Below, in pieces: positions 3,473-62,173 of a stretch of 64,000 bases of DNA; positions within the stretch are counted from its first letter, which is position 1; every line of letters starts with the position of its first letter. Location: the NCBI RefSeq assembly GCF_045037415.1, contig NZ_CP173438.1; one strand, given 5' to 3'. A model generated the notes under the pieces. It was not told the origin of the DNA. It was given only the letters and a program-made list of their open reading frames with translations, and did no database searches. The DNA is from Escherichia coli (GTDB lineage: Bacteria > Pseudomonadota > Gammaproteobacteria > Enterobacterales > Enterobacteriaceae). The translations under genes and the position numbers were made by a program.

Positions 3473-3559
3473 AATTTTGTACAACCTCTTCCGATAAAAA
3501 GACCGGCACAGCTTACGCAAAAAGCGCAGGCAAAACCATGATCAGTAATGTGATTGCGA

Positions 3560-4462
3560 CTAACCACCCGTTTTCAGGCAATATTCTGTCGTAGCGTGGC
3601 GTTCGATCCAGCGGATCATTTTACCCGCGATGTCGATACCGGTGGTTTTTTCTATTCCTTCCAGCCCTGGCGACGCATTCACTTCCATCACCAACGGCCC
3701 GCGATTAGCACGCAGAATATCCACACCAGCAACGTCCAGCGCCATCGTTCGCGCGGCTTTTATCGCGATTTCACGCTCCTGTGGTGTGATACTGGCGACG
3801 CTTGCCGCGCCGCCACGATGCAAATTGGAACGAAAATCGCCCTCTTTCGCCCGCCGTTCAATCGCAGCGACTACTTCATCGCCAACAACCAGACAGCGGA
3901 TATCGCACCCTTGCGCCTCTTTGATATATTCCTGCACCAGAATATGCGCGTTCAGACCGCGGAAAGCGTCAATCACGCTTTCCGCCGCCTGACGCGTCTC
4001 CGCCAGCACGACGCCAATTCCCTGCGTGCCTTCAACCAGCTTGACCACCAGCGGCGCACCACCGACCATGTCGATTAAATCGCTGGTATCATCCGGCGAA
4101 TGCGCAATGCCCGTGACAGGCAGGTCGATGCCCTGACGCGCCAGCAGTTGCATGGAACGCAATTTGTCACGCGCCCGGGCAATGGCGACCGACTCATTGA
4201 GCGGATAGCTCCCCAGCATCTCGAACTGGCGCAGTGCCGCCGTCCCATAAAAGGTAATGGCGGTGCCAATACGCGGGATCACTGCGTCAAAATGGGGTAA
4301 CTTGCGGCCTTTGTAGTGAATAGAAGACGCCGCAGGATTTATGTTCATATAGCAAGAAAGCGGATCAAGAATTTCAACCAGGTGACCGCGCTGTATAGCG
4401 GCTTCACGCAGCCGCTTACACGAATAGAGCGTTCCATCCCGGGACAATATGGCAATTTTCAC
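3560..4462 (-). CDS. rimK: Ribosomal protein S6 L-glutamate ligase RimK (ATP-grasp)
   Basis: ORF track 300 aa [10 protein letters not shown]...; ATP-grasp family; first codon reads GTG in the sequence. Confidence 0.94.
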
Positions 4463-4522
4463 CCTGCACCTCTCTGTCAGACCTGGTCAAAAGCCCGCGT
4501 ATCATACATCGACGTGGCAGTT

Positions 4523-5245
4523 TTAGCGCGTCGCCCAACCCTGTTTGTGCAAATAATCCAGAATAAATGGGCGGCTTTCTTTAATGATTGTTCGGCGGAT
4601 ATGATCGCTCCAGGTATCCCGGCGATTATTGCTGCCACGGGTGAGGTAATATTCCGCCAGTTGCTCGTCATACTGCGCCAGTGCGTCTTTATCCAGCGGT
4701 TGATAGCTGTTTTCATGCACCAAAATGGAGGCCGGTAAACGCGGCTTAAGATCCGGATTATCCGCAGGCCAGCCAAGGCACAGCCCAAACAGCGGCAGAA
4801 CATGCTGCGGTAATTTCAGCAGTTCCGTCACCGCTTCAATATTATTGCGCAGGCCGCCGATATATACCCCGCCCAATCCCAGCGATTCCGCTGCGGTTAA
4901 TGCATTCTGCGCCATCATTGCCGTATCAACGACACCGAGCAACAGTTGTTCCGCCAGGCCGAGCTGAGCATCCGGACAGATCTGTAAATGGCGGTTAAAG
5001 TCGGCACAGAACACCCAAAACTCTGCCGCTTGCGCTACGTGTTTTTGCCCGCCGGTCAGCGTCACCAGTTCTTCACGTAACGCTTTGTCGGTAATGCGGA
5101 TAATGCTACTGCACTGCAAAAAACTGGAACTGGACGTCGCACGGGCGCTGTTAATAATCGCCTCACGCTGCGCTTCGGAAATGGGTTCATCAGTGAAATG
5201 GCGAATGGAGCGATGGCCACAAATAAGTTCAATGGTTGGCGTCAT
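4523..5245 (-). CDS. nfsA: Oxygen-insensitive NADPH nitroreductase NfsA
   Basis: ORF track 240 aa MTPTIELICGHRSIRHFTDEPI...; nitroreductase family. Confidence 0.95.
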   Translation of the reverse strand: MTPTIELICGHRSIRHFTDEPISEAQREAIINSARATSSSSFLQCSSIIRITDKALREELVTLTGGQKHVAQAAEFWVFCADFNRHLQICPDAQLGLAEQLLLGVVDTAMMAQNALTAAESLGLGGVYIGGLRNNIEAVTELLKLPQHVLPLFGLCLGWPADNPDLKPRLPASILVHENSYQPLDKDALAQYDEQLAEYYLTRGSNNRRDTWSDHIRRTIIKESRPFILDYLHKQGWATR

Positions 5246-6608: not shown

Positions 6609-8294
6609 GTGAATATAAACGTCGCCGAATTGTTAAATGGGAATTACATTCTGTTATTATTTGTGGTCCTCGCGCTTGGGCTATGTCTCGGGAAATTACG
6701 ACTTGGTTCGATCCAACTGGGTAATTCCATTGGCGTTTTAGTCGTATCGCTGTTATTAGGCCAACAACATTTCAGCATTAACACCGACGCGCTTAATCTT
6801 GGCTTTATGCTGTTTATTTTCTGCGTCGGGGTCGAAGCCGGACCGAACTTTTTTTCCATTTTTTTTCGCGATGGGAAAAATTACCTAATGTTAGCACTGG
6901 TGATGGTTGGCAGTGCGCTGGTGATCGCCTTAGGGTTAGGTAAGCTGTTTGGCTGGGATATTGGCCTGACGGCCGGTATGTTAGCTGGCTCTATGACGTC
7001 GACACCGGTTCTGGTCGGTGCTGGCGATACACTGCGTCATTCCGGCATGGAAAGCAGGCAGCTCTCACTGGCACTGGATAATCTGAGCCTCGGGTATGCC
7101 TTAACCTATTTAATCGGTCTGGTGAGTTTGATTGTTGGTGCGCGTTACTTGCCGAAATTGCAGCATCAGGACTTACAGACCAGCGCCCAGCAAATCGCCC
7201 GCGAACGTGGCCTGGACACTGATGCCAACCGTAAGGTTTATTTACCGGTGATCCGCGCCTACCGCGTCGGCCCGGAGCTGGTGGCCTGGACCGACGGCAA
7301 AAATCTGCGTGAACTGGGTATTTATCGACAAACTGGCTGCTACATTGAACGTATTCGACGTAACGGGATTCTGGCAAATCCAGACGGTGATGCGGTGCTA
7401 CAAATGGGCGATGAAATAGCGTTGGTAGGCTATCCCGACGCCCACGCCCGACTCGATCCCAGCTTCCGTAACGGCAAAGAAGTTTTCGATCGTGACCTTC
7501 TCGACATGCGTATCGTCACTGAAGAAGTGGTCGTTAAAAACCATAACGCCGTTGGCAAACGTCTCGCACAACTGAAGTTGACCGATCACGGTTGCTTCCT
7601 TAACCGCGTCATTCGTAGCCAGATTGAGATGCCGATAGATGACAACGTCGTGCTTAACAAAGGTGACGTTTTACAAGTCAGCGGCGATGCCCGTCGCGTA
7701 AAAACCATCGCCGATCGCATCGGCTTTATCTCGATTCATAGCCAGGTCACTGACTTGCTGGCATTCTGCGCCTTCTTTGTTATTGGGCTGATGATCGGGA
7801 TGATCACCTTCCAGTTCAGCACATTCAGTTTCGGCATGGGAAACGCTGCCGGGTTGTTATTCGCCGGAATTATGCTGGGATTTATGCGCGCTAACCACCC
7901 GACCTTCGGTTACATTCCGCAGGGTGCATTAAGCATGGTGAAAGAGTTCGGCTTAATGGTGTTTATGGCAGGCGTTGGTCTGAGCGCCGGTAGCGGTATT
8001 AATAACGGCCTGGGCGCGATTGGCGGTCAGATGTTGATTGCCGGATTGATTGTCAGTCTTGTGCCAGTGGTTATCTGTTTCTTGTTCGGTGCTTATGTAT
8101 TGCGAATGAACCGCGCACTGTTGTTCGGCGCAATGATGGGCGCACGCACCTGCGCGCCGGCAATGGAGATCATCAGTGATACAGCTCGCAGTAACATCCC
8201 GGCGCTGGGCTATGCGGGCACCTATGCAATCGCCAACGTCCTGCTGACGCTGGCAGGGACAATCATCGTCATGGTATGGCCAGGATTAGGATAA
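6609..8294 (+). CDS. ybjL: Putative AAE-family transporter YbjL (two TrkA-C domains)
   Basis: ORF track 561 aa [20 protein letters not shown]...; first codon GTG at 6609; stop TAA 8292-8294 confirmed. Confidence 0.93.
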
Positions 8295-9089: not shown

Positions 9090-10298
9090 ATGACCGTAAA
9101 TTCTTCACGTAATGCATTGAAACGCCGAACCTGGGCGCTGTTTATGTTCTTCTTTTTGCCAGGCCTGTTAATGGCGTCCTGGGCAACCCGTACGCCTGCT
9201 ATCCGCGATATTCTCTCTGTCTCGATCGCTGAAATGGGCGGTGTTCTCTTTGGTCTGTCGATCGGTTCGATGAGCGGTATTCTCTGCTCGGCGTGGTTAG
9301 TGAAACGCTTTGGGACGCGTAATGTCATCCTTGTCACGATGTCCTGCGCATTGATCGGGATGATGGTATTAAGTCTGGCACTCTGGCTGACATCGCCCTT
9401 GCTCTTTGCCGTTGGTCTCGGCGTCTTTGGGGCTAGTTTTGGTTCTGCGGAAGTGGCGATAAACGTTGAAGGTGCCGCCGTTGAGAGAGAAATGAATAAG
9501 ACGGTTTTACCGATGATGCACGGTTTTTATAGCCTGGGCACGCTGGCAGGCGCTGGTGTCGGGATGGCACTGACGGCCTTTGGCGTTCCGGCAACGATGC
9601 ACATTTTATTGGCGGCGCTGGTAGGCATCGCGCCTATTTATATCGCCATTCAGGCAATCCCTGATGGTACGGGCAAAAATGCTGCCGATGGCACCCAGCA
9701 TGGCGAAAAAGGCGTTCCTTTTTATCGCGATATCCAGTTGCTGTTGATTGGTGTTGTAGTGCTGGCGATGGCCTTTGCCGAAGGTTCTGCCAACGACTGG
9801 TTACCCTTATTAATGGTTGATGGTCACGGTTTTAGCCCTACTTCCGGCTCGCTGATTTATGCCGGTTTTACTCTGGGGATGACCGTTGGACGCTTTACCG
9901 GCGGTTGGTTCATTGACCGTTACAGTCGCGTTGCCGTGGTTCGGGCCAGTGCACTAATGGGGGCGTTGGGTATTGGGCTGATTATTTTTGTCGATAGCGC
10001 CTGGGTCGCTGGGGTGTCTGTTGTACTTTGGGGACTGGGTGCCTCGCTGGGCTTCCCGCTGACCATTTCTGCCGCCAGCGATACCGGCCCCGATGCACCA
10101 ACCCGCGTCAGCGTGGTAGCTACGACCGGTTATCTGGCTTTCCTCGTCGGGCCGCCGCTGCTGGGCTATCTCGGCGAACATTATGGATTACGTAGTGCAA
10201 TGATGGTTGTACTGGCGCTGGTTATTCTCGCGGCTATTGTCGCGAAAGCCGTCGCCAAACCCGATACCAAAACGCAGACGGCGATGGAGAATAGTTGA
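9090..10298 (+). CDS. ybjJ: MFS transporter YbjJ
   Basis: ORF track 9027..10298; ATG at 9090 gives 402 aa [22 protein letters not shown]...; 12-TM MFS topology. Confidence 0.9.
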
Positions 10299-11113
10299 TG
10301 AGCATTAAATTAATTGCGGTAGACATGGATGGTACTTTCTTAAGCGATCAAAAAACCTATAACCGTGAGCGGTTTATGGCTCAGTATCAGCAAATGAAAG
10401 CACAAGGCATTCGCTTTGTGGTCGCCAGCGGGAATCAATATTATCAGTTGATCTCTTTCTTTCCTGAAATTGCTAATGAAATTGCCTTTGTGGCTGAAAA
10501 CGGCGGCTGGGTAGTGAGCGAAGGCAAAGATGTTTTTAATGGCGAGCTGTCGAAGGATGCGTTTACTACTGTCGTGGAACATTTGCTGACGCGCCCGGAA
10601 GTGGAAATTATTGCCTGCGGAAAAAATAGCGCCTATACCCTCAAAAAATATGACGATGCCATGAAAACGGTGGCGGAAATGTATTATCACCGTCTGGAAT
10701 ACGTCGATAACTTTGACAACTTAGAAGATATCTTCTTTAAATTTGGCCTTAATCTCTCTGACGAACTGATCCCACAAGTGCAAAAAGCATTACATGAGGC
10801 CATCGGCGATATCATGGTACCGGTCCATACCGGCAACGGCAGCATCGATCTGATTATCCCCGGTGTACATAAAGCCAATGGCCTTCGCCAACTGCAGAAA
10901 TTATGGGGAATAGACGACAGCGAAGTGGTGGTCTTTGGCGATGGCGGTAACGATATTGAGATGCTGCGTCAGGCAGGGTTTAGCTTTGCAATGGAAAATG
11001 CCGGCAGCGCGGTCGTCGCAGCGGCAAAATACCGGGCAGGCTCCAATAACCGTGAAGGCGTACTGGATGTGATCGATAAAGTGCTTAAACACGAAGCGCC
11101 ATTTAAGCAATAA
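10298..11113 (+). CDS. ybjI: HAD-superfamily Cof-type sugar phosphatase YbjI
   Basis: ORF track 10295..11113; ATG at 10298 overlaps ybjJ stop; DMDGTF motif; paralogous to ybiV in this window. Confidence 0.92.
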   Translation: MSIKLIAVDMDGTFLSDQKTYNRERFMAQYQQMKAQGIRFVVASGNQYYQLISFFPEIANEIAFVAENGGWVVSEGKDVFNGELSKDAFTTVVEHLLTRPEVEIIACGKNSAYTLKKYDDAMKTVAEMYYHRLEYVDNFDNLEDIFFKFGLNLSDELIPQVQKALHEAIGDIMVPVHTGNGSIDLIIPGVHKANGLRQLQKLWGIDDSEVVVFGDGGNDIEMLRQAGFSFAMENAGSAVVAAAKYRAGSNNREGVLDVIDKVLKHEAPFKQ

Positions 11114-32916: not shown

Positions 32917-33816
32917 ATGATTTTCAATATTCAACGCTACTCGACCCATGATGGCCCCGGTATCCGCACGGTCGTATTTCTTAAAGGCTGTTCGCTGGGC
33001 TGCCGCTGGTGTCAGAACCCGGAAAGCCGCGCCCGCACGCAGGATCTGCTGTATGACCCACGACTCTGTCTGGAAGGCTGTGAGCTGTGCGCTAAGACCG
33101 CACCGGAAGTGATTGAGCGCGCGTTGAATGGTTTGCTTATTCATCGGGAAAAGTTAACCCCGGAGCATTTTACGGCGCTAACCGACTGCTGCCCGACACA
33201 GGCGTTAACCGTGTGTGGTGAAGTGAAAAGCGTTGAGGAGATCATGGCAACCGTTTTGCGCGATAAACCGTTTTACGATCGCAGCGGCGGCGGCTTAACA
33301 CTTTCTGGCGGAGAACCCTTTATGCAGCCGGAAATGGCGACAGCGCTACTGCAAGCCAGCCACGAAGCCGGTATTCATACTGCGGTAGAAACCTGTCTGC
33401 ATGTGCCGTGGAAATATATCGCCCCTTCTCTGTCCTATATTGATCTGTTTCTTGCCGATTTAAAACACGTTGCCGACGCGCCGTTTAAACAGTGGACCGA
33501 CGGTAACGCCGCCAGGGTGCTGGATAATCTGAAAAAACTCGCCGCAGCGGGCAAAAAAATCATTATCCGCGTGCCACTGATTCAGGGCTTTAATGCCGAC
33601 GAAACCTCTGTGAAAGCCATTACCGATTTTGCCGCCGACGAGCTGCACGTTAGCGAAATTCATTTCCTGCCCTACCACACGCTGGGCATCAACAAATATC
33701 ACTTACTTAATCTGCCCTATGACGCCCCGGAAAAACCGCTTGATGCGCCAGAACTGCTCGACTTTGCCCAGCAGTATGCCTGCCAGAAAGGGTTAACCGC
33801 GACCTTACGAGGATAA
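32917..33816 (+). CDS. ybiY: Glycyl-radical enzyme activating protein YbiY (PflE), radical SAM
   Basis: ORF track 32890..33816; ATG at 32917 has an AGAGAGG Shine-Dalgarno 6 nt upstream (299 aa [35 protein letters not shown]); the alternative ATG at 32890 lacks an SD. Confidence 0.88.
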
Positions 33817-33821
33817 CAACC

Positions 33822-36254
33822 ATGACCACACTGAAACTGGACACGCTCAGCGATCGCATTAAAGCGCACAAAAATGCGCTGGTGCATATTGTGAAACCGC
33901 CGGTCTGTACCGAGCGCGCGCAGCACTATACCGAGATGTATCAACAACATCTCGATAAGCCGATCCCGGTACGTCGCGCGCTGGCACTGGCGCATCACCT
34001 GGCGAATCGCACCATCTGGATCAAACATGATGAATTGATCATTGGCAACCAGGCAAGCGAAGTTCGCGCCGCGCCGATCTTCCCGGAATATACCGTCTCC
34101 TGGATCGAAAAAGAGATTGATGATCTGGCAGATCGTCCCGGTGCTGGTTTTGCGGTGAGTGAAGAGAACAAACGCGTTCTGCATGAAGTGTGCCCGTGGT
34201 GGCGCGGTCAGACCGTACAGGATCGCTGCTACGGCATGTTTACCGATGAGCAAAAAGGTCTGCTGGCGACCGGCATCATTAAAGCGGAGGGCAATATGAC
34301 CTCCGGCGATGCGCACCTGGCGGTCAATTTCCCGCTACTGCTGGAAAAAGGTCTTGATGGTCTGCGTGAGAAAGTGGCGGAACGTCGCTCGCGCATCAAT
34401 CTGACGGTTCTGGAAGATCTGCACGGCGAGCAATTCCTGAAAGCGATTGATATCGTGCTGGTGGCAGTCAGTGAACACATTGAACGTTTCGCTGCCCTGG
34501 CGCGTGAAATGGCCGCGACCGAAACCCGCGAAAGCCGTCGCGATGAACTGCTGACGATAGCAGAAAACTGCGATCTTATCGCCCACCAGCCGCCGCAGAC
34601 TTTCTGGCAGGCGCTGCAACTGTGTTACTTCATCCAGTTGATTTTGCAGATTGAATCTAACGGTCACTCGGTATCGTTTGGTCGTATGGACCAGTATCTC
34701 TATCCATACTATCGCCGTGACGTTGAACTGAACCAGACACTGGATCGCGAACACGCCATCGAGATGCTGCATAGCTGCTGGTTGAAATTGCTGGAAGTGA
34801 ACAAAATCCGCTCCGGCTCACACTCAAAAGCCTCTGCGGGAAGTCCGCTGTATCAGAACGTCACCATTGGCGGGCAAAATCTGGTTGATGGTCAACCGAT
34901 GGACGCGGTAAATCCACTCTCTTATGCGATCCTCGAATCTTGCGGTCGCCTGCGTTCGACTCAGCCTAACCTCAGCGTGCGTTACCATGCGGGTATGAGT
35001 AACGATTTCCTCGACGCCTGTGTTCAGGTGATCCGCTGCGGCTTCGGGATGCCGGCGTTCAACAACGACGAAATCGTCATCCCGGAATTTATTAAACTCG
35101 GTATTGAACCGCAGGACGCTTACGACTACGCAGCAATTGGTTGTATCGAAACCGCCGTCGGTGGCAAATGGGGCTATCGCTGTACCGGCATGAGCTTTAT
35201 CAACTTCGCCCGCGTGATGCTGGCGGCGCTGGAAGGCGGTCGTGATGCCACCAGCGGCAAAGTGTTCCTGCCACAAGAAAAAGCGTTGTCAGCGGGTAAC
35301 TTCAACAACTTCGATGAAGTAATGGACGCATGGGATACGCAAATCCGTTACTACACGCGTAAATCAATCGAAATCGAATATGTCGTCGACACCATGCTGG
35401 AAGAGAACGTACACGATATTCTCTGCTCGGCGCTGGTCGATGACTGTATTGAGCGAGCGAAAAGTATTAAGCAAGGCGGCGCGAAATATGACTGGGTTTC
35501 TGGCCTGCAGGTCGGCATTGCTAACCTCGGCAACAGCCTGGCGGCAGTGAAGAAACTGGTATTTGAACAGGGCGCGATTGGTCAGCAACAGCTGGCTGCC
35601 GCACTGGCGGATGACTTCGACGGTCTGACTCACGAGCAGCTGCGTCAGCGGCTGATTAACGGTGCGCCTAAGTACGGCAACGACGATGATACTGTCGATA
35701 CGCTGCTGGCTCGCGCTTATCAGACCTATATCGACGAACTAAAACAGTACCATAACCCACGCTACGGTCGTGGTCCGGTTGGCGGCAACTATTACGCGGG
35801 TACGTCGTCTATCTCCGCTAACGTACCCTTTGGCGCGCAGACTATGGCAACACCGGACGGGCGTAAAGCGCATACCCCGCTGGCAGAAGGCGCTAGTCCG
35901 GCCTCCGGTACTGACCATCTCGGCCCAACGGCGGTCATTGGCTCAGTAGGTAAACTGCCTACGGCCGCGATTCTCGGCGGCGTGCTGCTCAACCAGAAAC
36001 TGAATCCAGCAACGCTGGAGAACGAATCTGACAAGCAGAAACTGATGATCCTGCTGCGCACCTTCTTTGAAGTGCATAAAGGCTGGCATATTCAGTACAA
36101 CATCGTTTCCCGCGAGACGCTGCTGGAGGCGAAAAAACATCCGGATCAGTATCGCGATCTGGTAGTGCGCGTCGCGGGCTATTCCGCCTTCTTCACCGCG
36201 CTCTCTCCAGACGCTCAGGACGATATCATCGCCCGTACTGAACATATGCTGTAA
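33822..36254 (+). CDS. ybiW: Glycyl radical enzyme YbiW (PflF), pyruvate formate-lyase-like, substrate not inferable from sequence
   Basis: ORF track 810 aa; C-terminal glycyl radical signature VRVAGYSAFF; immediately downstream of its activase ybiY. Confidence 0.94.
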   Translation: MTTLKLDTLSDRIKAHKNALVHIVKPPVCTERAQHYTEMYQQHLDKPIPVRRALALAHHLANRTIWIKHDELIIGNQASEVRAAPIFPEYTVSWIEKEIDDLADRPGAGFAVSEENKRVLHEVCPWWRGQTVQDRCYGMFTDEQKGLLATGIIKAEGNMTSGDAHLAVNFPLLLEKGLDGLREKVAERRSRINLTVLEDLHGEQFLKAIDIVLVAVSEHIERFAALAREMAATETRESRRDELLTIAENCDLIAHQPPQTFWQALQLCYFIQLILQIESNGHSVSFGRMDQYLYPYYRRDVELNQTLDREHAIEMLHSCWLKLLEVNKIRSGSHSKASAGSPLYQNVTIGGQNLVDGQPMDAVNPLSYAILESCGRLRSTQPNLSVRYHAGMSNDFLDACVQVIRCGFGMPAFNNDEIVIPEFIKLGIEPQDAYDYAAIGCIETAVGGKWGYRCTGMSFINFARVMLAALEGGRDATSGKVFLPQEKALSAGNFNNFDEVMDAWDTQIRYYTRKSIEIEYVVDTMLEENVHDILCSALVDDCIERAKSIKQGGAKYDWVSGLQVGIANLGNSLAAVKKLVFEQGAIGQQQLAAALADDFDGLTHEQLRQRLINGAPKYGNDDDTVDTLLARAYQTYIDELKQYHNPRYGRGPVGGNYYAGTSSISANVPFGAQTMATPDGRKAHTPLAEGASPASGTDHLGPTAVIGSVGKLPTAAILGGVLLNQKLNPATLENESDKQKLMILLRTFFEVHKGWHIQYNIVSRETLLEAKKHPDQYRDLVVRVAGYSAFFTALSPDAQDDIIARTEHML

Positions 36255-36399
36255 TCTTCTCAGCCCGGCGGCGGCGTCGCCGGGCTAAATCATTCACATC
36301 ATCAATTTCAGCCTCGCTTTCATTCGAAATATAATTTGTGCTCTGCGTCACATTGTTATTACACTGTTACGGTTTCATTTTCGAGCCAGGAGCACACCT

Positions 36400-37215
36400 A
36401 TGAGCGTAAAAGTTATCGTCACAGACATGGACGGTACTTTTCTTAACGACGCCAAAACGTACAACCAACCACGTTTTATGGCGCAATATCAGGAACTGAA
36501 AAAGCGCGGCATTGAGTTCGTTGTCGCCAGCGGTAATCAGTATTACCAGCTTATTTCGTTCTTTCCTGAGCTAAAGGATGAGATCTCTTTTGTCGCGGAA
36601 AACGGCGCACTGGTTTACGAACATGGCAAGCAGTTGTTCCACGGCGAACTGACCCGACATGAATCGCGGATTGTTATTGGCGAGTTGCTAAAAGATAAGC
36701 AACTCAATTTTGTCGCCTGCGGTCTGCAAAGTGCATATGTCAGCGAAAATGCCCCCGAAGCATTCGTCGCACTGATGGCAAAACACTACCATCGCCTGAA
36801 ACCTGTAAAAGATTATCAGGAGATTGACGACGTACTGTTCAAGTTTTCGCTCAACCTGCCGGATGAACAAATCCCGTTAGTGATCGACAAACTGCACATA
36901 ACGCTGGATGGCATTATGAAACCCGTCACCAGTGGTTTTGGCTTTATCGACTTGATTATTCCCGGTCTACATAAAGCAAACGGTATTTCGCGGTTACTGA
37001 AACGCTGGGATCTGTCACCGCAAAATGTGGTAGCGATTGGCGACAGCGGTAACGATGCGGAGATGCTGAAAATGGCGCGTTATTCCTTTGCGATGAGCAA
37101 TGCTGCGGAAAACATTAAACAAATCGCCCGTTACGCTACCGATGATAATAATCATGAAGGCGCGCTGAATGTGATTCAGGCGGTGCTGGAAAATAAACCG
37201 CCGTTTAATCTTTGA
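36400..37215 (+). CDS. ybiV: HAD-superfamily Cof-type sugar phosphatase YbiV (SupH)
   Basis: ORF track 271 aa [26 protein letters not shown]...; paralogous to ybjI. Confidence 0.94.
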
Positions 37216-37256
37216 TTATCACCAATTCAGTTTATTGAGAAAGTGCATGTCATTAT

Positions 37257-37355
37257 ACCGGATACGGCGTGACCGCCTTATTTGGCATACAAAATCATGA
37301 AAATTCAATATATTGCGATACACTACCAGGCCTGATAAGCGTAGCGCACCAGGCA
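37257..37355. repeat. Composite REP/BIME-type extragenic repeat (two REP-like palindromic units flanking an IHF-like ATTCAATATATTG motif)
   Basis: CCGGATACGGCGTGACCGCCTTAT ... ATTCAATATATTG ... AGGCCTGATAAGCGTAGCGCACCAGGCA; a near-identical module recurs at 62052-62150. Confidence 0.75.
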
Positions 37356-37378
37356 ATCTTGCGTTTGTCATCAGTTTC

Positions 37379-37405
37379 AGTAGCCCTGACCATATCAGGG
37401 CTACT
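37379..37405 (-). terminator. Stem-loop downstream of ybiT (probable terminator)
   Basis: AGTAGCCCTGACCATATCAGGGCTACT inverted repeat 10 bp past the ybiT stop. Confidence 0.45.
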
Positions 37406-37414
37406 GATAATAAC

Positions 37415-39007
37415 TTACTCGATCCCTTTACTACGCAGGTAATCTTCGTAATTACCGCTAAAGTCGATCACGCGTTCCGGGGTGATTTCCAGAATACGGG
37501 TCGCCAGGGAGCTTACAAACTCACGGTCGTGAGAAACAAAGATCAGCGTGCCCTGATACAGTTCCAGCGCCATGTTCAGCGACTCAATGGATTCCATATC
37601 CAGGTGGTTGGTCGGTTCGTCCATGATCAGAATGTTCGGCTTCTGCATCATTAACTTACCAAACAGCATCCGCCCTTTTTCCCCACCGGAAAGCACTTTA
37701 GCTGGCTTTTTGATGTCGTCCTGGCTGAACAGCAAACGACCGAGAATACTGCGCACCGCCTGCTCGTCATCGCCTTCCTGCTTCCACTGACTCATCCATT
37801 CGAACACGGTCAGATCATTTTCAAACTCATATTCGTGGTCCTGAGCGTAGTAACCAATGCGCGCGTTTTCAGACCATTTTACGGTGCCGCTGTCCGGTTG
37901 CAGATCGCCCACCAGCGTTTTCAGCAGCGTTGATTTACCGACGCCGTTGGTACCCAGTACCGCCAGTTTTTCACCCACTTCCAGCAGCAGGTTGAGATTT
38001 TTAAACAGTGGACCGTTATCAAACCCTTTAGTCAGACCTTCCACTTCTAGCGCGTTACGGAACAGTTTCTTATCCTGTTCAAAACGGATGAACGGGTTCT
38101 GACGGCTGGAAGCTTTCACCTCTTCCAGTTTGATTTTATCAATCTGGCGCGCGCGCGAAGTTGCCTGGCGAGATTTCGAGGCGTTGGCGCTAAAGCGGCT
38201 AACGAAAGATTGCAACTCAGCAATCTGCGCTTTCTTCTTCGCGTTATCAGCCAGCAGACGTTCACGCGCCTGAGTCGCCGCCGTCATGTACTCATCGTAG
38301 TTGCCCGGATAAACGCGCAGCTCGCCGTAATCCAGATCCGCCATGTGGGTACAAACCATGTTAAGGAAGTGACGGTCGTGCGAGATGATGATCATGGTGC
38401 TGTCACGCTCGTTCAGCACCTGTTCCAGCCAGCGAATGGTGTCGATATCGAGGTTGTTGGTCGGTTCGTCGAGCAGGAGAATGTCGGGATCAGCAAACAG
38501 CGCCTGAGCCAGCAGCACACGCAGCTTCCAGCCAGGAGCAACTTCACTCATCGGGCCGTAGTGCTGTTCCACTGGAATTCCCACGCCAAGCAACAGTTCA
38601 CCAGCGCGAGCTTCCGCAGAGTAACCGTCCATTTCGCCGTATTTCACTTCCAGATCGGCCACTTTATAGCCGTCTTCTTCACTCATTTCCGGCAAAGCAT
38701 AGATGCGGTCACGCTCCTGCTTCACTTCCCACAACTCTTTATGCCCCATGATCACCGTATCCAGCACAGTGAACTCTTCAAAGGCAAACTGATCCTGACG
38801 CAGCTTACCAATGCGTTCGTTGGGATCGAGGGAAACGTTACCCAACGTCGGCTCTAAGTCGCCGCCGAGGATCTTCATAAAGGTGGATTTACCACTACCG
38901 TTCGCGCCAATCAGGCCGTAACGGTTGCCGCCGCCGAATTTGACGGAAATGTTTTCAAACAACGGCTTACTGCCGAACTGCATGGTGACGTTACTGGAAA
39001 CTAACAC
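37415..39007 (-). CDS. ybiT: ABC-F family ATPase YbiT (two ABC domains, no permease domain)
   Basis: ORF track 530 aa; Walker [10 protein letters not shown] and GTNGVGKST; two signature motifs; characteristic ABC-F linker. Confidence 0.94.
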
Positions 39008-39225
39008 AGGCGTATCCTGAAAAGAGATATGACAAACCGCGCATTATGCCATAAGTCTGAAAGAAGATCCTGCTCCTCGCTTAAGGTCTACACTCAAGCC
39101 AAAGGCAAAAAATGTGATTTCGTACACATCTGATTTCACTGTGAGCTGGAATGAACTTATAATGCGCTTCCAGTACTCTAATATTCTCAACCCAATGGCC
39201 TGCCAGGCACAAAATCTCGCTTAAC

Positions 39226-40146
39226 ATGAATATGAAATTGAAAACATTATTCGCAGCGGCCTTCGCTGTTGTCGGCTTTTGCAGTACCGCCTCTGCGGTA
39301 ACTTATCCTCTGCCAACCGACGGGAGTCGCCTGGTTGGTCAGAATCAGGTGATCACCATTCCTGAAGGTAACACTCAGCCGCTGGAGTATTTTGCCGCCG
39401 AGTACCAGATGGGACTTTCCAATATGATGGAAGCGAACCCGGGTGTGGATACCTTCCTGCCGAAAGGCGGTACTGTACTGAACATTCCGCAGCAGCTGAT
39501 CCTGCCGGATACCGTTCATGAAGGCATCGTCATTAACAGTGCAGAGATGCGTCTGTATTACTATCCGAAAGGGACCAACACCGTTATCGTGCTGCCGATC
39601 GGCATTGGTCAGTTAGGCAAAGACACGCCTATCAACTGGACCACCAAAGTTGAGCGTAAAAAAGCAGGCCCGACCTGGACGCCGACCGCTAAAATGCACG
39701 CAGAGTACCGCGCTGCGGGCGAACCGCTTCCGGCGGTCGTTCCGGCTGGTCCGGATAACCCGATGGGGCTGTATGCACTCTACATCGGTCGCCTGTACGC
39801 TATCCATGGCACCAACGCCAACTTCGGTATCGGCCTGCGTGTAAGTCATGGTTGTGTGCGTCTGCGTAACGAAGACATCAAATTCCTGTTCGAGAAAGTA
39901 CCGGTCGGTACCCGCGTACAGTTTATTGATGAGCCGGTAAAAGCGACCACCGAGCCAGACGGCAGCCGTTATATTGAAGTCCATAACCCGCTGTCTACCA
40001 CCGAAGCCCAGTTTGAAGGTCAGGAAATTGTGCCAATTACCCTGACGAAGAGCGTGCAGACAGTGACCGGTCAGCCAGATGTTGACCAGGTTGTTCTGGA
40101 TGAAGCGATCAAAAATCGTTCCGGGATGCCGGTTCGTCTGAATTAA
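39226..40146 (+). CDS. ldtB: L,D-transpeptidase LdtB (YbiS)
   Basis: ORF track 306 aa with signal peptide; YkuD catalytic motif SHGCVRL. Confidence 0.94.
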
Positions 40147-40163
40147 TCTTCAAAACGTAAAGC

Positions 40164-40190
40164 AAAGGCGGACTCATAATCCGCCTTTTT
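40164..40190. terminator. Bidirectional terminator between ldtB and ybiR
   Basis: AAAGGCGGACTCATAATCCGCCTTTTT. Confidence 0.6.
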
Positions 40191-40203
40191 AATTTGACAG
40201 ACC

Positions 40204-41322
40204 TTATCCCGCCGGGATCATAACCAACAAAACATATCCCACCAGCGCCGCCCACAACAGCATCGGTATCGAATAAAGATGAAAACGCCACCAGATACGG
40301 CGATCGTTCGCCATCCGTAACGCAATCAAATTTGCCAGCGATCCGGGTAATAAACCAAAGCCACCTACGTTTACCGCCCATGCCAGTAATAAAGACGGTG
40401 GCACATAATTGAGCAGCAAAATGGTACTCGGCACGTTACTGATCACCTGCGATAAACCGATCGCCGTTAGCCATAATCCGGGTTCGGATAAATGACTCAC
40501 GTTACTTAACACCCCCTGCAAAACTGGCAGTTGGGTTAGTAAATGGACGTCGATAAACATCGCCATAAACACCAGCAGCAGCGTCCAGTCCACACTGAGC
40601 ACCACGCGACGCGCCAGCAGCGCAAAGCCCGCCGCCACAATCACCAGTCCCCACAGCTCTTGTTTTAACTCCAGCGCCGTCAGAAAGACGATATACAGCC
40701 CCAGACAACTCCACACCAGCCGCGGTTTCCACTCCGGCGTTTGCCCTCCTGTATGGTACTGCAGCGCCTTTCCAGGGAAACAACACCAGCACAACAGCAG
40801 GAGTGTCAGCATCATTGCGCCAGCCAGCGGTGCCATTTGGGCAATAAATCCGGCAAACGAAAGACCAGAACGTCCCCAGATAAGAATATTTTGCGGGTTG
40901 CCAATTGGCGTCAGTAGCGAACCAGCATTGACTGCCAGCGCCTCAAAAATAATCAGCCGATTAACCGGGATCTCACACAGTCTTTTTAGCGTGATAGTCA
41001 GCGGAACAACTATAAACAGCGCGACATCGTTGGTCAGAAAGGTAGAAAGCAGCGCCGCCGCCAGTACCATAAACATCGCCAGCCGACGCTCCGTAGCAAA
41101 ACGGCGCACCATTTTGCGCCCCAGCACATCAAAATAACCGCTTAACTCGACACCTTTAGTCAGCAGCATCAGGCCGCTTAAGGTGATGATGGTGTGCCAG
41201 TCGATAGCAGCAGGCCAGGATTTCGGTGCAAAGGGAACGAAAAAACTTAATCCGATGCCAACAAGAATTAATAACTGAAAAAAACGATCGCCTTGCAGCG
41301 TGCGTAAAAAAGGCAGGCTCAT
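40204..41322 (-). CDS. ybiR: Putative anion transporter YbiR (ArsB/NhaD permease superfamily)
   Basis: ORF track 372 aa polytopic membrane protein; start overlaps mntR stop by 4 bp. Confidence 0.9.
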
Positions 41323-41786
41323 TTGGCACCGTGTTTCTGGGTAAACAAACGAAAGGCATCCAGCGTCTCTTCACTAACATGGTGCTCCATACCTTCCGCG
41401 TCGCGACGGGCGATTTCCGGACTGACGCCCAACACCAACAAGAAATTTTCGACTATCTGATGTCGCTCGCGGCTTTCCTGCGCCAGCTTCTCTCCTTCTG
41501 CCGTTAAAAACACGCCACGCCAGGGGATCATTTCAATCAGCCCCATGGTTGCCAGTCGCTTAAGCATTTTAGCCACCGTCGGTTGCGAAACCCCCAGACG
41601 AGCAGCCATGTCTACCTGACGAGCTTCCCCCACTTCCCTGATCAAGTCAGAAATCAGCTCAACATAATCATCAATAAGCTCGCGCCGATGCGCCTCTCTG
41701 ACCTGGCGGAACCCTTCAACGTGCTCTTCCACGTTCACTAACTGCGTCACTTTTTTTGCTGTTGGCGTACCTGCGCGACGACTCAT
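41319..41786 (-). CDS. mntR: Manganese-responsive transcriptional regulator MntR (DtxR family)
   Basis: ORF track 155 aa [28 protein letters not shown]...; ATG confirmed at 41784-41786. Confidence 0.95.
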
Positions 41787-41879
41787 TATGCTTCCTCATT
41801 ATGGTGACGCATACATAGCGTTCTCATTTCGTGCGCACATTGTAAACCAGAGTTGCGAAGGTACAAAAAATTAACGTTT

Positions 41880-41918
41880 TAGCAATAGCTATATAATATA
41901 GCCTGTGCTATATCTGTA
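41880..41918. promoter_or_regulatory. Probable MntR operator(s) in the mntS promoter
   Basis: Overlapping palindromes ATAGCTAT and ATATAGC-CTGT-GCTATAT, resembling the ATAGC-N4-GCTAT core of MntR boxes; about 55-90 bp upstream of the mntS ATG. Confidence 0.6.
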
Positions 41919-41971
41919 TGTAATGCAATCATCCCTCAAGGATCGATGGGATTAGCAAGTCAGGAGGTCTT

Positions 41972-42100
41972 ATGAATGAGTTCAAGAGGTGTATGCGCGT
42001 GTTTAGTCATTCTCCCTTTAAAGTACGGTTAATGCTGCTCTCTATGTTGTGCGATATGGTCAACAACAAACCGCAGCAGGATAAACCTTCCGATAAATAG
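41972..42100 (+). CDS. mntS: Small protein MntS (42 aa), manganese homeostasis; below the ORF-track size cut-off
   Basis: ATG 41972 preceded by AGGAGG; translation MNEFKRCMRVFSHSPFKVRLMLLSMLCDMVNNKPQQDKPSDK; stop TAG 42098-42100. Confidence 0.85.
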   Translation: MNEFKRCMRVFSHSPFKVRLMLLSMLCDMVNNKPQQDKPSDK

Positions 42101-42136
42101 CGGCGTCGCGGTACGCCGCTTCACTCCTGCTTTTAT
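42098..42136 (+). terminator. Possible mntS terminator hairpin
   Basis: AGCGGCGTCGCGGTACGCCGCT stem-loop followed by a T-rich stretch. Confidence 0.35.
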
Positions 42137-42371
42137 GCAGGCACAACGCGTTTTGGTCTGAAAAACCCCACTTTTTGTCGGATTTGCAATCCCCTTCGCA
42201 AAAGATTTGTTCGTCGGTAGTTGACCTGAACAGCAGCTCGCTCTATCTTCTTGCAGCCCTGCGTATATTGCGGCTCGCGGATGCGGACCCCTTTCCCCTC
42301 TTCACGCACTCTTGCAGGTATTGACCCTTGACGCCAGGGTAAGCACATGGCGTTTGTTACGATAGTGGCAT

Positions 42372-43955
42372 ATGAATTTAACCCTCAAAGAATCGCTTGT
42401 TACCCGTAGCCGGGTATTTAGCCCGTGGACTGCGTTCTACTTTTTACAGTCGCTATTAATTAACCTCGGCTTAGGTTACCCCTTCAGTTTGCTCTACACC
42501 GCTGCGTTTACGGCTATTTTGCTTTTGCTATGGCGAACATTGCCTCGCGTACAAAAAGTTCTGGTCGGTATCAGTTCGCTGGTGGCGGCTTGTTATTTCC
42601 CTTTTGCTCAGGCCTACGGCGCGCCTAACTTCAATACATTGCTGGCATTGCACTCCACCAATATGGAAGAGTCGACCGAAATCCTGACGATTTTTCCGTG
42701 GTACAGCTACCTGGTCGGCATATTTATTTTTGCGCTCGGCGTAATAGCAATCAGGCGAAAAAAAGAGAGTGAAAAAGCGCGCTGGAATACCTTCGACAGC
42801 CTGTGCCTGGTATTCAGTGTGGCGACATTTTTTGTTGCTCCCGTGCAAAACCTGGCCTGGGGCGGCGTATTTAAACTGAAAGATACTGGCTATCCGGTAT
42901 TTCGTTTTGCTAAGGATGTCATCGTCAATAATAACGAGGTGATTGAAGAGCAAGAACGGATGGCAAAACTTTCCGGAATGAAAGATACCTGGACGGTCAC
43001 TGCCGTTAAGCCGAAGTATCAGACCTATGTGGTGGTGATCGGAGAAAGCGCGCGTCGCGATGCCCTCGGTGCCTTTGGCGGTCACTGGGACAATACCCCG
43101 TTTGCCAGCAGCGTTAACGGTTTGATATTTGCTGACTACATTGCCGCCAGTGGCTCCACGCAGAAATCGCTTGGCTTAACGCTCAATCGCGTTGTCGATG
43201 GCAAACCACAGTTTCAGGATAACTTTGTCACCCTGGCAAATCGCGCGGGCTTCCAGACCTGGTGGTTTTCCAACCAGGGTCAAATCGGCGAATACGATAC
43301 CGCCATCGCCAGCATCGCCAAACGAGCAGATGAAGTGTACTTCCTGAAAGAAGGTAATTTTGAAGCAGATAAAAACACGAAAGACGAAGCGTTACTGGAT
43401 ATGACCGCTCAAGTGCTGGCGCAAGAGCACTCGCAACCGCAGCTGATTGTTCTACATCTGATGGGCTCGCATCCGCAGGCCTGCGACCGGACACAAGGAA
43501 AATACGAAACCTTTGTGCAATCGAAAGAAACGTCGTGCTATCTCTATACCATGACGCAAACAGACGATTTACTGCGCAAGCTGTACGATCAGTTACGCAA
43601 CAGCGGCAGCAGCTTCTCGCTGGTTTACTTTTCTGACCACGGTCTGGCCTTTAAAGAGCGCGGCAAAGACGTGCAATACCTTGCTCATGATGATAAGTAT
43701 CAGCAAAATTTCCAGGTGCCTTTTATGGTCATTTCCAGCGACGATAAAGCGCATCGGGTGATTAAAGCCCGCCGCTCGGCCAATGACTTCTTAGGCTTTT
43801 TCTCGCAGTGGACGGGAATTAAAGCGAAGGAAATAAATATCAAATACCCGTTTATATCTGAAAAGAAAGCCGGGCCGATATACATCACCAACTTCCAGTT
43901 ACAGAAGGTGGATTACAACCATCTCGGAACCGATATTTTCGACCCGAAACCTTAA
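42372..43955 (+). CDS. opgE: Phosphoethanolamine transferase OpgE (YbiP)
   Basis: ORF track 527 aa; N-terminal TM helices plus periplasmic sulfatase-like domain. Confidence 0.93.
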   Translation: MNLTLKESLVTRSRVFSPWTAFYFLQSLLINLGLGYPFSLLYTAAFTAILLLLWRTLPRVQKVLVGISSLVAACYFPFAQAYGAPNFNTLLALHSTNMEESTEILTIFPWYSYLVGIFIFALGVIAIRRKKESEKARWNTFDSLCLVFSVATFFVAPVQNLAWGGVFKLKDTGYPVFRFAKDVIVNNNEVIEEQERMAKLSGMKDTWTVTAVKPKYQTYVVVIGESARRDALGAFGGHWDNTPFASSVNGLIFADYIAASGSTQKSLGLTLNRVVDGKPQFQDNFVTLANRAGFQTWWFSNQGQIGEYDTAIASIAKRADEVYFLKEGNFEADKNTKDEALLDMTAQVLAQEHSQPQLIVLHLMGSHPQACDRTQGKYETFVQSKETSCYLYTMTQTDDLLRKLYDQLRNSGSSFSLVYFSDHGLAFKERGKDVQYLAHDDKYQQNFQVPFMVISSDDKAHRVIKARRSANDFLGFFSQWTGIKAKEINIKYPFISEKKAGPIYITNFQLQKVDYNHLGTDIFDPKP

Positions 43956-61968: not shown

Positions 61969-62051
61969 CGCATCGGGTGGCTTGTGGGCGTTAAAACAGA
62001 GAAATCTTTTTGCCGCGCTCGCAAATGGCTGACAAGTGCTTGTTGTGAAAT

Positions 62052-62150
62052 GCCGGATGCGGCGCGAGCGCCTTATCCGGCCTACAAAAACATGCACATT
62101 CAATATATTGCAGAGTTCACGTAGGCCTGATAAGCGTAGCGTATCAGGCA
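62052..62150. repeat. Composite REP/BIME-type extragenic repeat (second copy)
   Basis: GCCGGATGCGGCGCGAGCGCCTTATCCGGCCTAC ... ATTCAATATATTG ... AGGCCTGATAAGCGTAGCGTATCAGGCA; same architecture and orientation as the 37257-37355 copy. Confidence 0.8.
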
Positions 62151-62173
62151 GTTTTGTGTTTGTCATCAGTCTC

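What the first reader, a model, noticed from the sequence alone, without database searches (positions are those of the whole stretch)
37216..37414. ybiU is absent: ybiV and ybiT stop codons are separated by only 199 bp occupied by a BIME repeat
In the K-12 gene order as I recall it, a ~1.27 kb gene (ybiU, a DUF1479 protein) sits between ybiT and ybiV. Here the two convergent stops are 199 bp apart and the spacer holds only a composite REP/BIME element plus a stem-loop. This is either a strain-specific deletion or indicates that ybiU was inserted in the K-12 lineage; the flanking REP sequence is a plausible recombination substrate.
Basis: partly seen in the sequence, partly recalled or inferred. 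Interest (0 to 1): 0.4.

Follow-up and report, generated by a model that had tools for sequence, protein, structure and literature searches.

The report
Old ybiU deletion, phylogroup B2 allele
This E. coli window lacks the gene ybiU because it carries an old deletion allele, seen in about a fifth of sequenced E. coli (all the recognisable strains are phylogroup B2) and in Escherichia albertii; this is ordinary gene-content variation.

Summary
ybiV (36400-37215, +) and ybiT (37415-39007, -) converge on a 199-bp spacer. It holds one BIME-1/RIB-type repeat and a 13-bp hairpin, and no ybiU sequence. K-12 has the 1266-bp ybiU here.

ybiU lies next to ybiV in Citrobacter, Salmonella, Klebsiella, Enterobacter and others. 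K-12 ybiU is as far from Citrobacter ybiU as the flanking genes are. So ybiU is ancestral, not an insertion in the K-12 lineage.

The loss is not strain-specific. 1041 of 5426 complete E. coli genomes carry this exact junction, including ST131, Nissle 1917, ABU 83972, ATCC 25922 and O127:H6, all phylogroup B2. 1095 genomes have no ybiU-like DNA anywhere.

The E. albertii type strain has the same junction, the same altered YbiV C-terminus (ENKPPF) and the same hairpin. Its spacer is 89% identical to the window, like the flanks. Against K-12 the spacer is 74% identical while the flanks are 97-99%. The null allele is therefore old.

The right end of the deletion lies at the left margin of the BIME. 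No second REP is seen, so REP-REP recombination is unsupported. This is ordinary and already visible in public annotation.

The parts
36400..37215 (+). ybiV (sugar phosphatase, 271 aa), intact
   Evidence: ORF. Annotated as ybiV in the 100%-identical record. 97-98% identical to K-12 ybiV except at the 3' end.
37189..37215 (+). Allele-specific 3' end of ybiV: last 8 codons plus stop, ENKPPFNL* against DNTSPFNS* in K-12 and Citrobacter. It marks the left edge of the diverged ybiU-less haplotype.
   Evidence: The ENKPPF tail is seen only in the window/SK1144, E. albertii L007 and E. whittamii L039. The DNTSPFN tail is shared by K-12 and most Citrobacter.
37216..37255 (.). Junction segment. It follows the ybiV stop directly and aligns weakly with the K-12 sequence that starts about 43 nt after the ybiU stop (left margin of the BIME unit). 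The ybiV terminator, the ybiU promoter and ybiU (K-12-like L001 about 3504-4962, roughly 1.46 kb) are missing.
   Evidence: blastn breakpoints (L001 3497-5000 replaced by window 37209-37254). MAFFT alignment. Same junction in E. albertii.
37256..37289 (+). REP y-type palindrome, degenerate (ACCGGATACGG...CCTTATTTGGCAT). The E. albertii copy is intact.
   Evidence: Alignment. It still folds as a hairpin in the RNA fold.
37290..37328 (.). Long (L) linker of the BIME-1/RIB element, with an IHF-like core ATTCAATATATTG at 37303-37315
   Evidence: Conserved with the second window copy (62022-62169) and with the K-12 copy. BIME-1 L linkers frequently carry an IHF site (PMC3333891). IHF binding was not tested.
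37329..37354 (+). REP z-type palindrome, inverted relative to REP y (GGCCTGATAAGCGTAGCGCACCAGGC)
   Evidence: Pattern search (2 matches, 0 expected). Alignment.
37355..37374 (.). Conserved right flank of the BIME unit (AATCTTGCGTTTGTCATCAG)
   Evidence: Shared by all four aligned copies.
37377..37407 (-). 13-bp perfect hairpin, 7 nt downstream of the ybiT stop on the ybiT strand. Probably the 3'-end hairpin of the ybiT mRNA. It has no U-tract.
   Evidence: Inverted repeat. Folds (-29.7 kcal/mol for the 55 nt after the stop). Four pairs changed on both sides relative to the K-12 hairpin, all still pairing. Not scored as an intrinsic terminator.
37415..39007 (-). ybiT (ABC-F ATPase, 530 aa), intact
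   Evidence: The protein accession WP_000961458.1 is the same in SK1144 and in the K-12-like strain.

Best explanation
The 199-bp ybiV-ybiT spacer is the ybiU-null allele of a multi-allelic chromosomal locus. ybiU (a DUF1479 protein of unknown function) was ancestrally the gene downstream of ybiV. A single old deletion of about 1.46 kb removed the ybiV terminator hairpin, the ybiU promoter and all of ybiU. Its right end lies at the left margin of a BIME-1/RIB repeat that already sat beside the ybiT 3' hairpin. This allele is carried by about a fifth of complete E. coli genomes, and all recognisable ones are phylogroup B2. The E. albertii type strain carries the same allele at species-level divergence. 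The allele therefore predates B2 diversification. It is either about as old as the E. coli / E. albertii split or it crossed between those lineages long ago. Later recombination made the flanks E. coli-like up to the edges of the indel. No ybiU copy exists elsewhere in such genomes. Shown: the absence, the junction, the distribution, the ancestral presence and the shared haplotype. Inferred: a single origin, the age, and that the BIME hairpins plus the 13-bp hairpin now act as the shared 3'-end region (RNA stabilisers or attenuators) of the convergent ybiV and ybiT transcripts.
For: The K-12-like locus has ybiU between ybiV and ybiT. The breakpoints are mapped. There is no YbiU-like coding sequence in the window. 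1085 of 5426 genomes have ybiV and ybiT contiguous, and 1041 have this junction, among them O25b:H4-ST131 at 100%, Nissle 1917, ABU 83972, ATCC 25922 and O127:H6. 4331 of 5426 genomes have ybiU-like DNA down to about 65-70% identity, so 1095 have none. ybiV-ybiU adjacency holds in Citrobacter, Salmonella, Klebsiella, Raoultella, Enterobacter, Lelliottia, Trabulsiella, Pluralibacter and others. K-12 ybiU is 80-86% identical in nucleotides to Citrobacter ybiU, against ybiW 84-86%, ybiV 78-81% and ybiT 86-88%. The ybiU remnant in Escherichia sp. MOD1-EC7003 is 93.8% identical to K-12 ybiU, against 94.6-95.0% for its flanks. E. albertii has the same junction, the same ENKPPF tail and the same hairpin. 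Window against E. albertii is 88.9% in 37190-37414 and about 90-92% in the flanks. Window against K-12 is 74% in the spacer and 97-99% in the flanks.
Against: Only one E. albertii genome and one genome per outgroup species were seen, so fixation in E. albertii is unknown. Phylogroups were not typed. The B2 assignment rests on recognising strain names among 60 of the 1041 listed rows. REP/BIME DNA can evolve fast or be converted by other copies, so the 74% spacer identity to K-12 may overstate the allele's age. The first 15 nt or so of the junction align poorly, so the exact right breakpoint is approximate. No transcript data were available for the 3'-end role of the hairpins, and the scan found no canonical intrinsic terminator in the spacer.
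Confidence: 0.85

Rival explanations
1. ybiU is a gene gained by insertion in the lineage leading to K-12 (non-B2 E. coli), and the window shows the empty ancestral site.
For: E. albertii and E. whittamii also lack ybiU. On its own that could suggest absence at the base of Escherichia.
Against: ybiU sits immediately downstream of ybiV in more than 35 species of at least 10 genera. K-12 ybiU is as divergent from Citrobacter ybiU as the flanking genes are, so there is no sign of recent import. A cryptic-clade Escherichia keeps a K-12-type ybiU remnant at flank-like divergence. The ybiU-less alleles carry a derived YbiV tail, while K-12 shares its tail with Citrobacter.
Confidence: 0.03
2. A recent, strain-specific deletion produced by homologous recombination between two REP/BIME copies flanking ybiU.
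For: A BIME lies exactly at the right edge of the missing segment. REPs are known targets of rearrangement and of IS insertion (PMC3333891; PMC1525189, listed).
Against: The junction is in 1041 genomes and in E. albertii at 89% identity, so it is neither recent nor strain-specific. No ybiU-bearing Escherichia or Citrobacter allele examined has a REP between ybiV and ybiU. They have a terminator hairpin there. The spacer holds a single BIME-1, not a hybrid of two.
Confidence: 0.05
3. A sub-question of the best explanation. The null allele entered the B2 ancestor (or E. albertii) by ancient inter-species homologous recombination, rather than being retained as an ancestral polymorphism since the species split.
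For: At the spacer the window groups with E. albertii (89%) and not with K-12 (74%), against the species tree. The two other allele classes at this locus are also shared across Escherichia species, as expected at a recombination hotspot.
Against: No imported flanks are visible. Window against K-12 is 97-99% right up to 37189 and from about 37410 onward. Window against E. albertii shows no raised identity near the junction. A transfer would therefore have to be old enough for its arms to have been overwritten. The data cannot separate this from long-retained polymorphism.
Confidence: 0.4
4. Assembly artefact: ybiU was lost through collapse or misjoining at the repeat.
For: Repeats can break assemblies.
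Against: The identical junction occurs in 1041 independently sequenced complete genomes, always once and always chromosomal. Both flanking genes are intact.
Confidence: 0.01

Closest known systems
E. coli K-12 ybiY-ybiW-ybiV-ybiU / ybiT locus (b0820-b0824)
   Same: Same gene order and orientation on both sides (fsa, ybiY, ybiW, ybiV ... ybiT, ldtB, ybiR, mntR). Flanks are 97-99% identical and the YbiT protein is identical. A BIME-1 and a hairpin lie next to the ybiT stop in both.
   Different: ybiU, the ybiV terminator and the ybiU promoter are missing (about 1.46 kb). The last 8 ybiV codons, the BIME and the hairpin are strongly diverged, and the hairpin has 4 compensated pair changes.
ybiV-ybiT junction of Escherichia albertii NBRC 107761 (L007) and of annotated B2 E. 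coli genomes such as SK1144, ST131, Nissle 1917 and ABU 83972
   Same: Same breakpoints, same ENKPPF YbiV tail, same BIME-1 and same hairpin. Identity is 100% in ST131-type genomes and 96-98% in other B2 strains.
   Different: E. albertii differs at about 11% of positions, as its flanking genes do, and its REP y is intact where the window copy is degenerate.
BIME-1 / RIB (RIP) elements: y REP, long L linker with an IHF site, z1 REP, present as single copies at 3' ends of transcription units (Bachellier 1994 and Boccard & Prentki 1993, as summarised in PMC3333891)
   Same: Two inverted REPs, a 39-nt conserved linker with an IHF-like core, single copy, placed between convergent gene ends. A second copy in the window (62022-62169) aligns along the whole unit.
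   Different: REP y has lost several consensus G/C positions. IHF binding is not shown. The z1 versus z2 subtype was not formally assigned.
Loss of tnpA(REP) by precise deletion with the flanking BIMEs retained in some E. coli lineages (PMC3333891)
   Same: A lineage-specific gene loss in E. coli whose scar is bordered by a BIME.
   Different: In that case BIMEs flank the lost gene on both sides. Here a BIME is seen on one side only, and the lost gene is an ordinary chromosomal gene, not a REP-associated transposase.

Membership tests
BIME-1 / RIB repeat element | Two REP palindromes (y and z type) in inverted orientation | tested here: met
   REP y at 37256-37289 and REP z at 37329-37354. They align with the K-12 copy and with the copy at 62022-62169. 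The REP z pattern occurs 2 times against 0 expected. Both fold as hairpins.
BIME-1 / RIB repeat element | Long, conserved L linker that carries an IHF-binding site | tested here: inconclusive
   The 39-nt linker is conserved among the four aligned copies, and the core ATTCAATATATTG is invariant except at one position in E. albertii. Its resemblance to the IHF consensus WATCAANNNNTTR (12 of 13) comes from memory of that consensus. Binding cannot be tested with these tools.
BIME-1 / RIB repeat element | [quoted passage not shown] | tested here: met
   One unit lies between the convergent stops of ybiV and ybiT.
ybiU / DUF1479 gene | DUF1479-like coding sequence between ybiV and ybiT or elsewhere in the window | tested here: not met
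   tblastn of K-12 YbiU against the window gives a best E of 1.6. The spacer ORFs are unrelated. 1095 of 5426 E. coli genomes have no ybiU-like DNA, which closely matches the number with this junction.
Rho-independent (intrinsic) terminator | G+C-rich hairpin followed by a U-tract | tested here: not met
   No terminator-like site was scored in 37216-37414 on either strand. The 13-bp hairpin is followed by AAACUGAUGAC on the ybiT strand. The ybiV terminator hairpin of K-12 and Citrobacter is deleted.
E. coli phylogroup B2 (origin of the window) | Clermont markers or core-genome placement | not testable with these tools
   The markers are not in the window. Indirect evidence: 100% identity of 36700-37900 to SK1144, TUM2367 and Ec-U4, and of the junction to an O25b:H4-ST131 strain. 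96-98% identity to Nissle 1917, ABU 83972, ATCC 25922 and O127:H6. That those strains are B2 is established knowledge.
ES036 (CssrF) sRNA, Rfam RF02751 | Score at or above the gathering threshold | tested here: not met
   21.8 bits against a gathering score of 37.6, E = 0.54, at 37291-37333, which lies in the BIME linker.

The most novel reading that the evidence does not exclude
The ybiV-ybiT interval carries three deep allele classes: K-12-type ybiU, a ybiU only about 75% identical in nucleotides, and the ybiU-null allele. Each class is shared between E. coli and other Escherichia species at roughly species-level divergence. This could be a long-lived trans-species polymorphism kept by selection on the YciT-regulated fsaA/ybiY-W-V-U sugar pathway, with loss of ybiU being adaptive in B2 and E. 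albertii, rather than neutral hotspot turnover.
Probability: 0.1. Interest if true: 0.5.

Novelty: already known. Interest (0 to 1): 0.15.

Why it matters
It matters little by itself. The absence of ybiU is a lineage marker, and more than a thousand public, annotated genomes already show ybiV directly followed by ybiT. It has minor practical uses. The junction is a clean presence/absence marker that, among the strains I could recognise, separates B2 from other E. coli. It also shows that ybiU, a gene of unknown function with solved structures, is dispensable in a very successful extraintestinal lineage, while the rest of the YciT-regulated cluster (fsaA, ybiY, ybiW, ybiV) is kept. Anyone working on the function of that cluster should know this. 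The shared allele with E. albertii is a small, tidy example of a locus genealogy that disagrees with the species tree.

Tried and rejected
1. Rfam on 36000-39500 at E up to 1 gave only a sub-threshold ES036 hit inside the BIME linker. I treat it as chance or repeat-derived.

2. I looked for ybiU remnants in the spacer or elsewhere in the window by tblastn and by listing small ORFs. None were found.

3. I asked whether K-12 ybiU was a recent import from Citrobacter, because the protein is 96% identical to that of Citrobacter sp. MGH106. Nucleotide identity (80-86%) equals that of the flanks, so I rejected this.

4. I looked for recently introgressed flanks around the indel, in sliding windows against K-12 and against E. 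albertii. No elevated or depressed patch adjoins the junction. The 93% figure in the first BLAST came from the diverged spacer, not from ybiT.

5. I looked for a canonical terminator in the spacer and found none.

6. I looked for a second REP on the ybiV side in ybiU-bearing alleles of Escherichia and Citrobacter, which would support REP-REP recombination. None was seen.

7. A literature search for ybiU returned 13 papers, and none of the titles or abstracts concerned its distribution among phylogroups. I read only two of them for ybiU mentions.

Full report
**Observation**

The window has ybiV at 36400-37215 (+, 271 aa) and ybiT at 37415-39007 (-, 530 aa). The spacer 37216-37414 is exactly 199 bp. 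Megablast of 36700-37900 against 5426 complete E. coli genomes gave 100% full-length matches, for example SK1144, TUM2367 and Ec-U4. RefSeq annotates ybiV and ybiT there with nothing between them.

In a K-12-like chromosome the same flanks enclose ybiU, a 1266-bp gene for a DUF1479 protein on the ybiV strand. That ybiU is 100% identical to K-12 MG1655 ybiU.

**Breakpoints**

blastn of the K-12-like locus (L001) against the window aligns L001 1-3496 with window 33713-37208. It aligns L001 5001-10646 with window 37255-42899. A MAFFT alignment extends weak homology leftward, so that window 37216 corresponds to about L001 4963, some 43 nt after the ybiU stop.

The missing segment is thus about 1.46 kb. 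It comprises the ybiV terminator hairpin (ccggagccgtgcgctccgg followed by T's), the ybiU promoter region and all of ybiU. tblastn of YbiU against the whole 64-kb window finds nothing (best E = 1.6). The short ORFs in the spacer are mechanical.

**What the spacer contains**

- REP y at 37256-37289. It is degenerate here and intact in E. albertii.
- A 39-nt linker at 37290-37328, with the core ATTCAATATATTG at 37303-37315.
- REP z at 37329-37354.
- A conserved right flank at 37355-37374.
- A perfect 13-bp hairpin at 37377-37407.

The whole repeat unit aligns with the K-12 copy and with a second copy in the window at 62022-62169. This architecture is that of BIME-1/RIB elements: y and z REPs, a long conserved L linker that often carries an IHF site, and a single copy (PMC3333891).

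The 205-nt ybiT-strand RNA folds well below shuffled controls (z = -4.9). No canonical intrinsic terminator is scored in the spacer. Rfam gives only a sub-threshold hit.

The hairpin next to the ybiT stop is kept in position across Escherichia alleles. Between the window/E. albertii form and the K-12 form, four base pairs are changed on both sides and still pair. This argues that the hairpin is functional, most likely as the 3' end of the ybiT mRNA. The compensated changes amount to a single contrast between two allele groups.

**Direction of change**

A scan of one genome per species with YbiV returned 46 loci. ybiU lies immediately downstream of ybiV in Citrobacter (many species), Salmonella, Klebsiella, Raoultella, Enterobacter, Lelliottia, Trabulsiella, Pluralibacter, Huaxiibacter, Intestinirhabdus and others.

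K-12 ybiU is 80-86% identical in nucleotides to Citrobacter ybiU. The corresponding values for the flanks are ybiW 84-86%, ybiV 78-81% and ybiT 86-88%. Escherichia sp. MOD1-EC7003 retains a K-12-type remnant of ybiU (codons 275-420) that is 93.8% identical, against 94.6-95.0% for its flanks.

ybiU is therefore ancestral and vertically inherited, and the window shows a loss. The idea that ybiU was inserted in the K-12 lineage is rejected.

**Distribution in E. coli**

- 1085 of 5426 genomes have ybiV and ybiT joined within one match.
- A 116-nt probe across the junction (37185-37300) matches 1041 genomes, once each and always on the chromosome.
- Recognisable strains among the listed rows are O25b:H4-ST131 (100%), ABU 83972, ATCC 25922 and Nissle 1917 (98.3%), and O127:H6 (96.6%). 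All are phylogroup B2 by established knowledge. No recognisable non-B2 strain appears.
- ybiU at 99-100% identity is found in K-12, O157:H7, O26:H11 and O104:H4, and at 97.6% in SMS-3-5.
- Sensitive blastn finds ybiU-like DNA in 4331 genomes, so 1095 have none. This almost equals the number with the null junction, so these genomes hold no displaced copy.

The deletion is lineage-wide, not strain-specific.

**Age of the allele**

The E. albertii type strain (L007) has the same junction and the same derived YbiV tail (ENKPPFTL* against the window's ENKPPFNL*). K-12 and Citrobacter have DNTSPFN-. E. albertii also has the same BIME-1 and the same hairpin sequence. E. whittamii shares the ENKPPF tail, but carries a 1.08-kb AT-rich insert instead of the BIME.

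Window against E. albertii is 88.9% identical over 37190-37414 and about 90-92% in the flanking genes. No patch of raised identity adjoins the junction. Window against K-12 is 97-99% in the flanks but 74% in the spacer, and the last eight ybiV codons are strongly diverged.

At this short segment the window therefore groups with E. albertii and not with K-12. The null allele is old. Either it has been retained since about the E. coli / E. albertii split, or it moved between the lineages long ago and recombination later overwrote its arms. I cannot separate these two. Fast evolution or conversion of REP DNA may inflate the apparent age.

**Mechanism of the deletion**

The right end lies at the left margin of the BIME unit, so the repeat is positionally implicated. 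None of the ybiU-bearing Escherichia or Citrobacter alleles examined has a REP on the ybiV side. A cryptic-clade allele (L006) shows the pre-BIME state, with ybiU followed directly by the hairpin.

REP-REP homologous recombination therefore has no visible second partner. Illegitimate recombination at or near the BIME is the more economical reading, but it is an inference.

**Context**

The interval is multi-allelic. Besides the null allele and K-12-type ybiU, the following alleles occur:

- A ybiU only 75-76% identical in nucleotides, in 242 E. coli genomes (L003). The same class occurs in Escherichia sp. E1V33 (95.8% to L003) and in strain SCPM-O-B-8794 (89.4%).
- ybiU followed by LacI-family, MFS and TIM-barrel genes (L005).
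- Broken forms (L004 and L045).

**Function of ybiU**

YbiU has solved structures (2dbi, 2dbn, 2csg) but no assigned function. A ChIP-exo study places it in a YciT-regulated cluster with fsaA, ybiY, ybiW and ybiV (PMC8464067).

**Verdict**

This is ordinary gene-content polymorphism, already visible in public annotation. The one mildly interesting feature is an allele genealogy that crosses species boundaries.

Noticed in passing
window 62022-62169: A second BIME-1/RIB-type element (REP y, L linker with the same ATTCAATATATTG core, REP z, and the TTTGTCATCAG flank). It is 83% identical to the K-12 ybiU-ybiT BIME.
   Followed up: partly
L003 5965-7224; L006 about 6960-8225; L008 about 6962-8227: A second ybiU allele class, only 75-76% identical in nucleotides (82-84% in amino acids) to K-12 ybiU, sits at the same locus in 242 E. 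coli genomes and in two other Escherichia lineages. It is as far from K-12 ybiU as the Klebsiella and Enterobacter genes are, and farther than Citrobacter. Its origin is unexplained.
   Followed up: partly
L005 10233-15310 (E. coli RIVM_C037134); also L045 from 7385 onward: Some E. coli and a cryptic-clade Escherichia carry a LacI-family regulator, an MFS transporter and a TIM-barrel protein between ybiU and ybiT. In this allele the sequence just downstream of ybiT resembles the Citrobacter one and there is no BIME.
   Followed up: partly
L039 6814-7891 (E. whittamii): This locus shares the ENKPPF YbiV tail but retains a ybiV terminator. It carries a 1.08-kb insert of 35% G+C with two small ORFs in place of ybiU and the BIME, and a different ybiT hairpin.
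   Followed up: no
L045 6952-7384 (Escherichia sp. MOD1-EC7003): An independent internal deletion leaves only codons 275-420 of a K-12-type ybiU, with a frameshift. This is a second, separate route to ybiU loss in the genus.
   Followed up: partly
L004 5850-8470 (E. coli HH97): ybiU is broken. The 5' 140 nt and the 3' 56 nt remain around about 800 nt of unrelated DNA. A further 1.24-kb segment is inserted inside the BIME, between K-12-like positions 5074 and 5075. Nothing is annotated there.
   Followed up: partly
L025 4477-9322 (Salmonella enterica subsp. diarizonae): ybiV lies on the opposite strand from ybiU and ybiW, as an in-place inversion relative to E. coli and Citrobacter.
   Followed up: no
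L031 and L033 (Enterobacteriaceae UBA5654; Superficieibacter): ybiV and ybiT are adjacent, with neither ybiU nor ybiW detected. These look like independent losses outside Escherichia. L031 has a compact hairpin between them, flanked by an A-run and a T-run.
   Followed up: no
window 40105-40628 (ldtB-ybiR spacer and 3' part of ybiR): A local patch of 88-93% identity to K-12, against 97-100% around it. This may be a recombination patch or a divergent ybiR allele.
   Followed up: no
window 10298-10505: 72% nucleotide similarity to the 5' part of ybiV, presumably a paralogous Cof/HAD-type phosphatase gene.
   Followed up: no
window 37291-37333: A sub-threshold Rfam hit to the ES036 (CssrF) sRNA (21.8 bits against a gathering score of 37.6). 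It lies in the BIME linker and the start of REP z, so it is probably repeat-derived similarity.
   Followed up: partly
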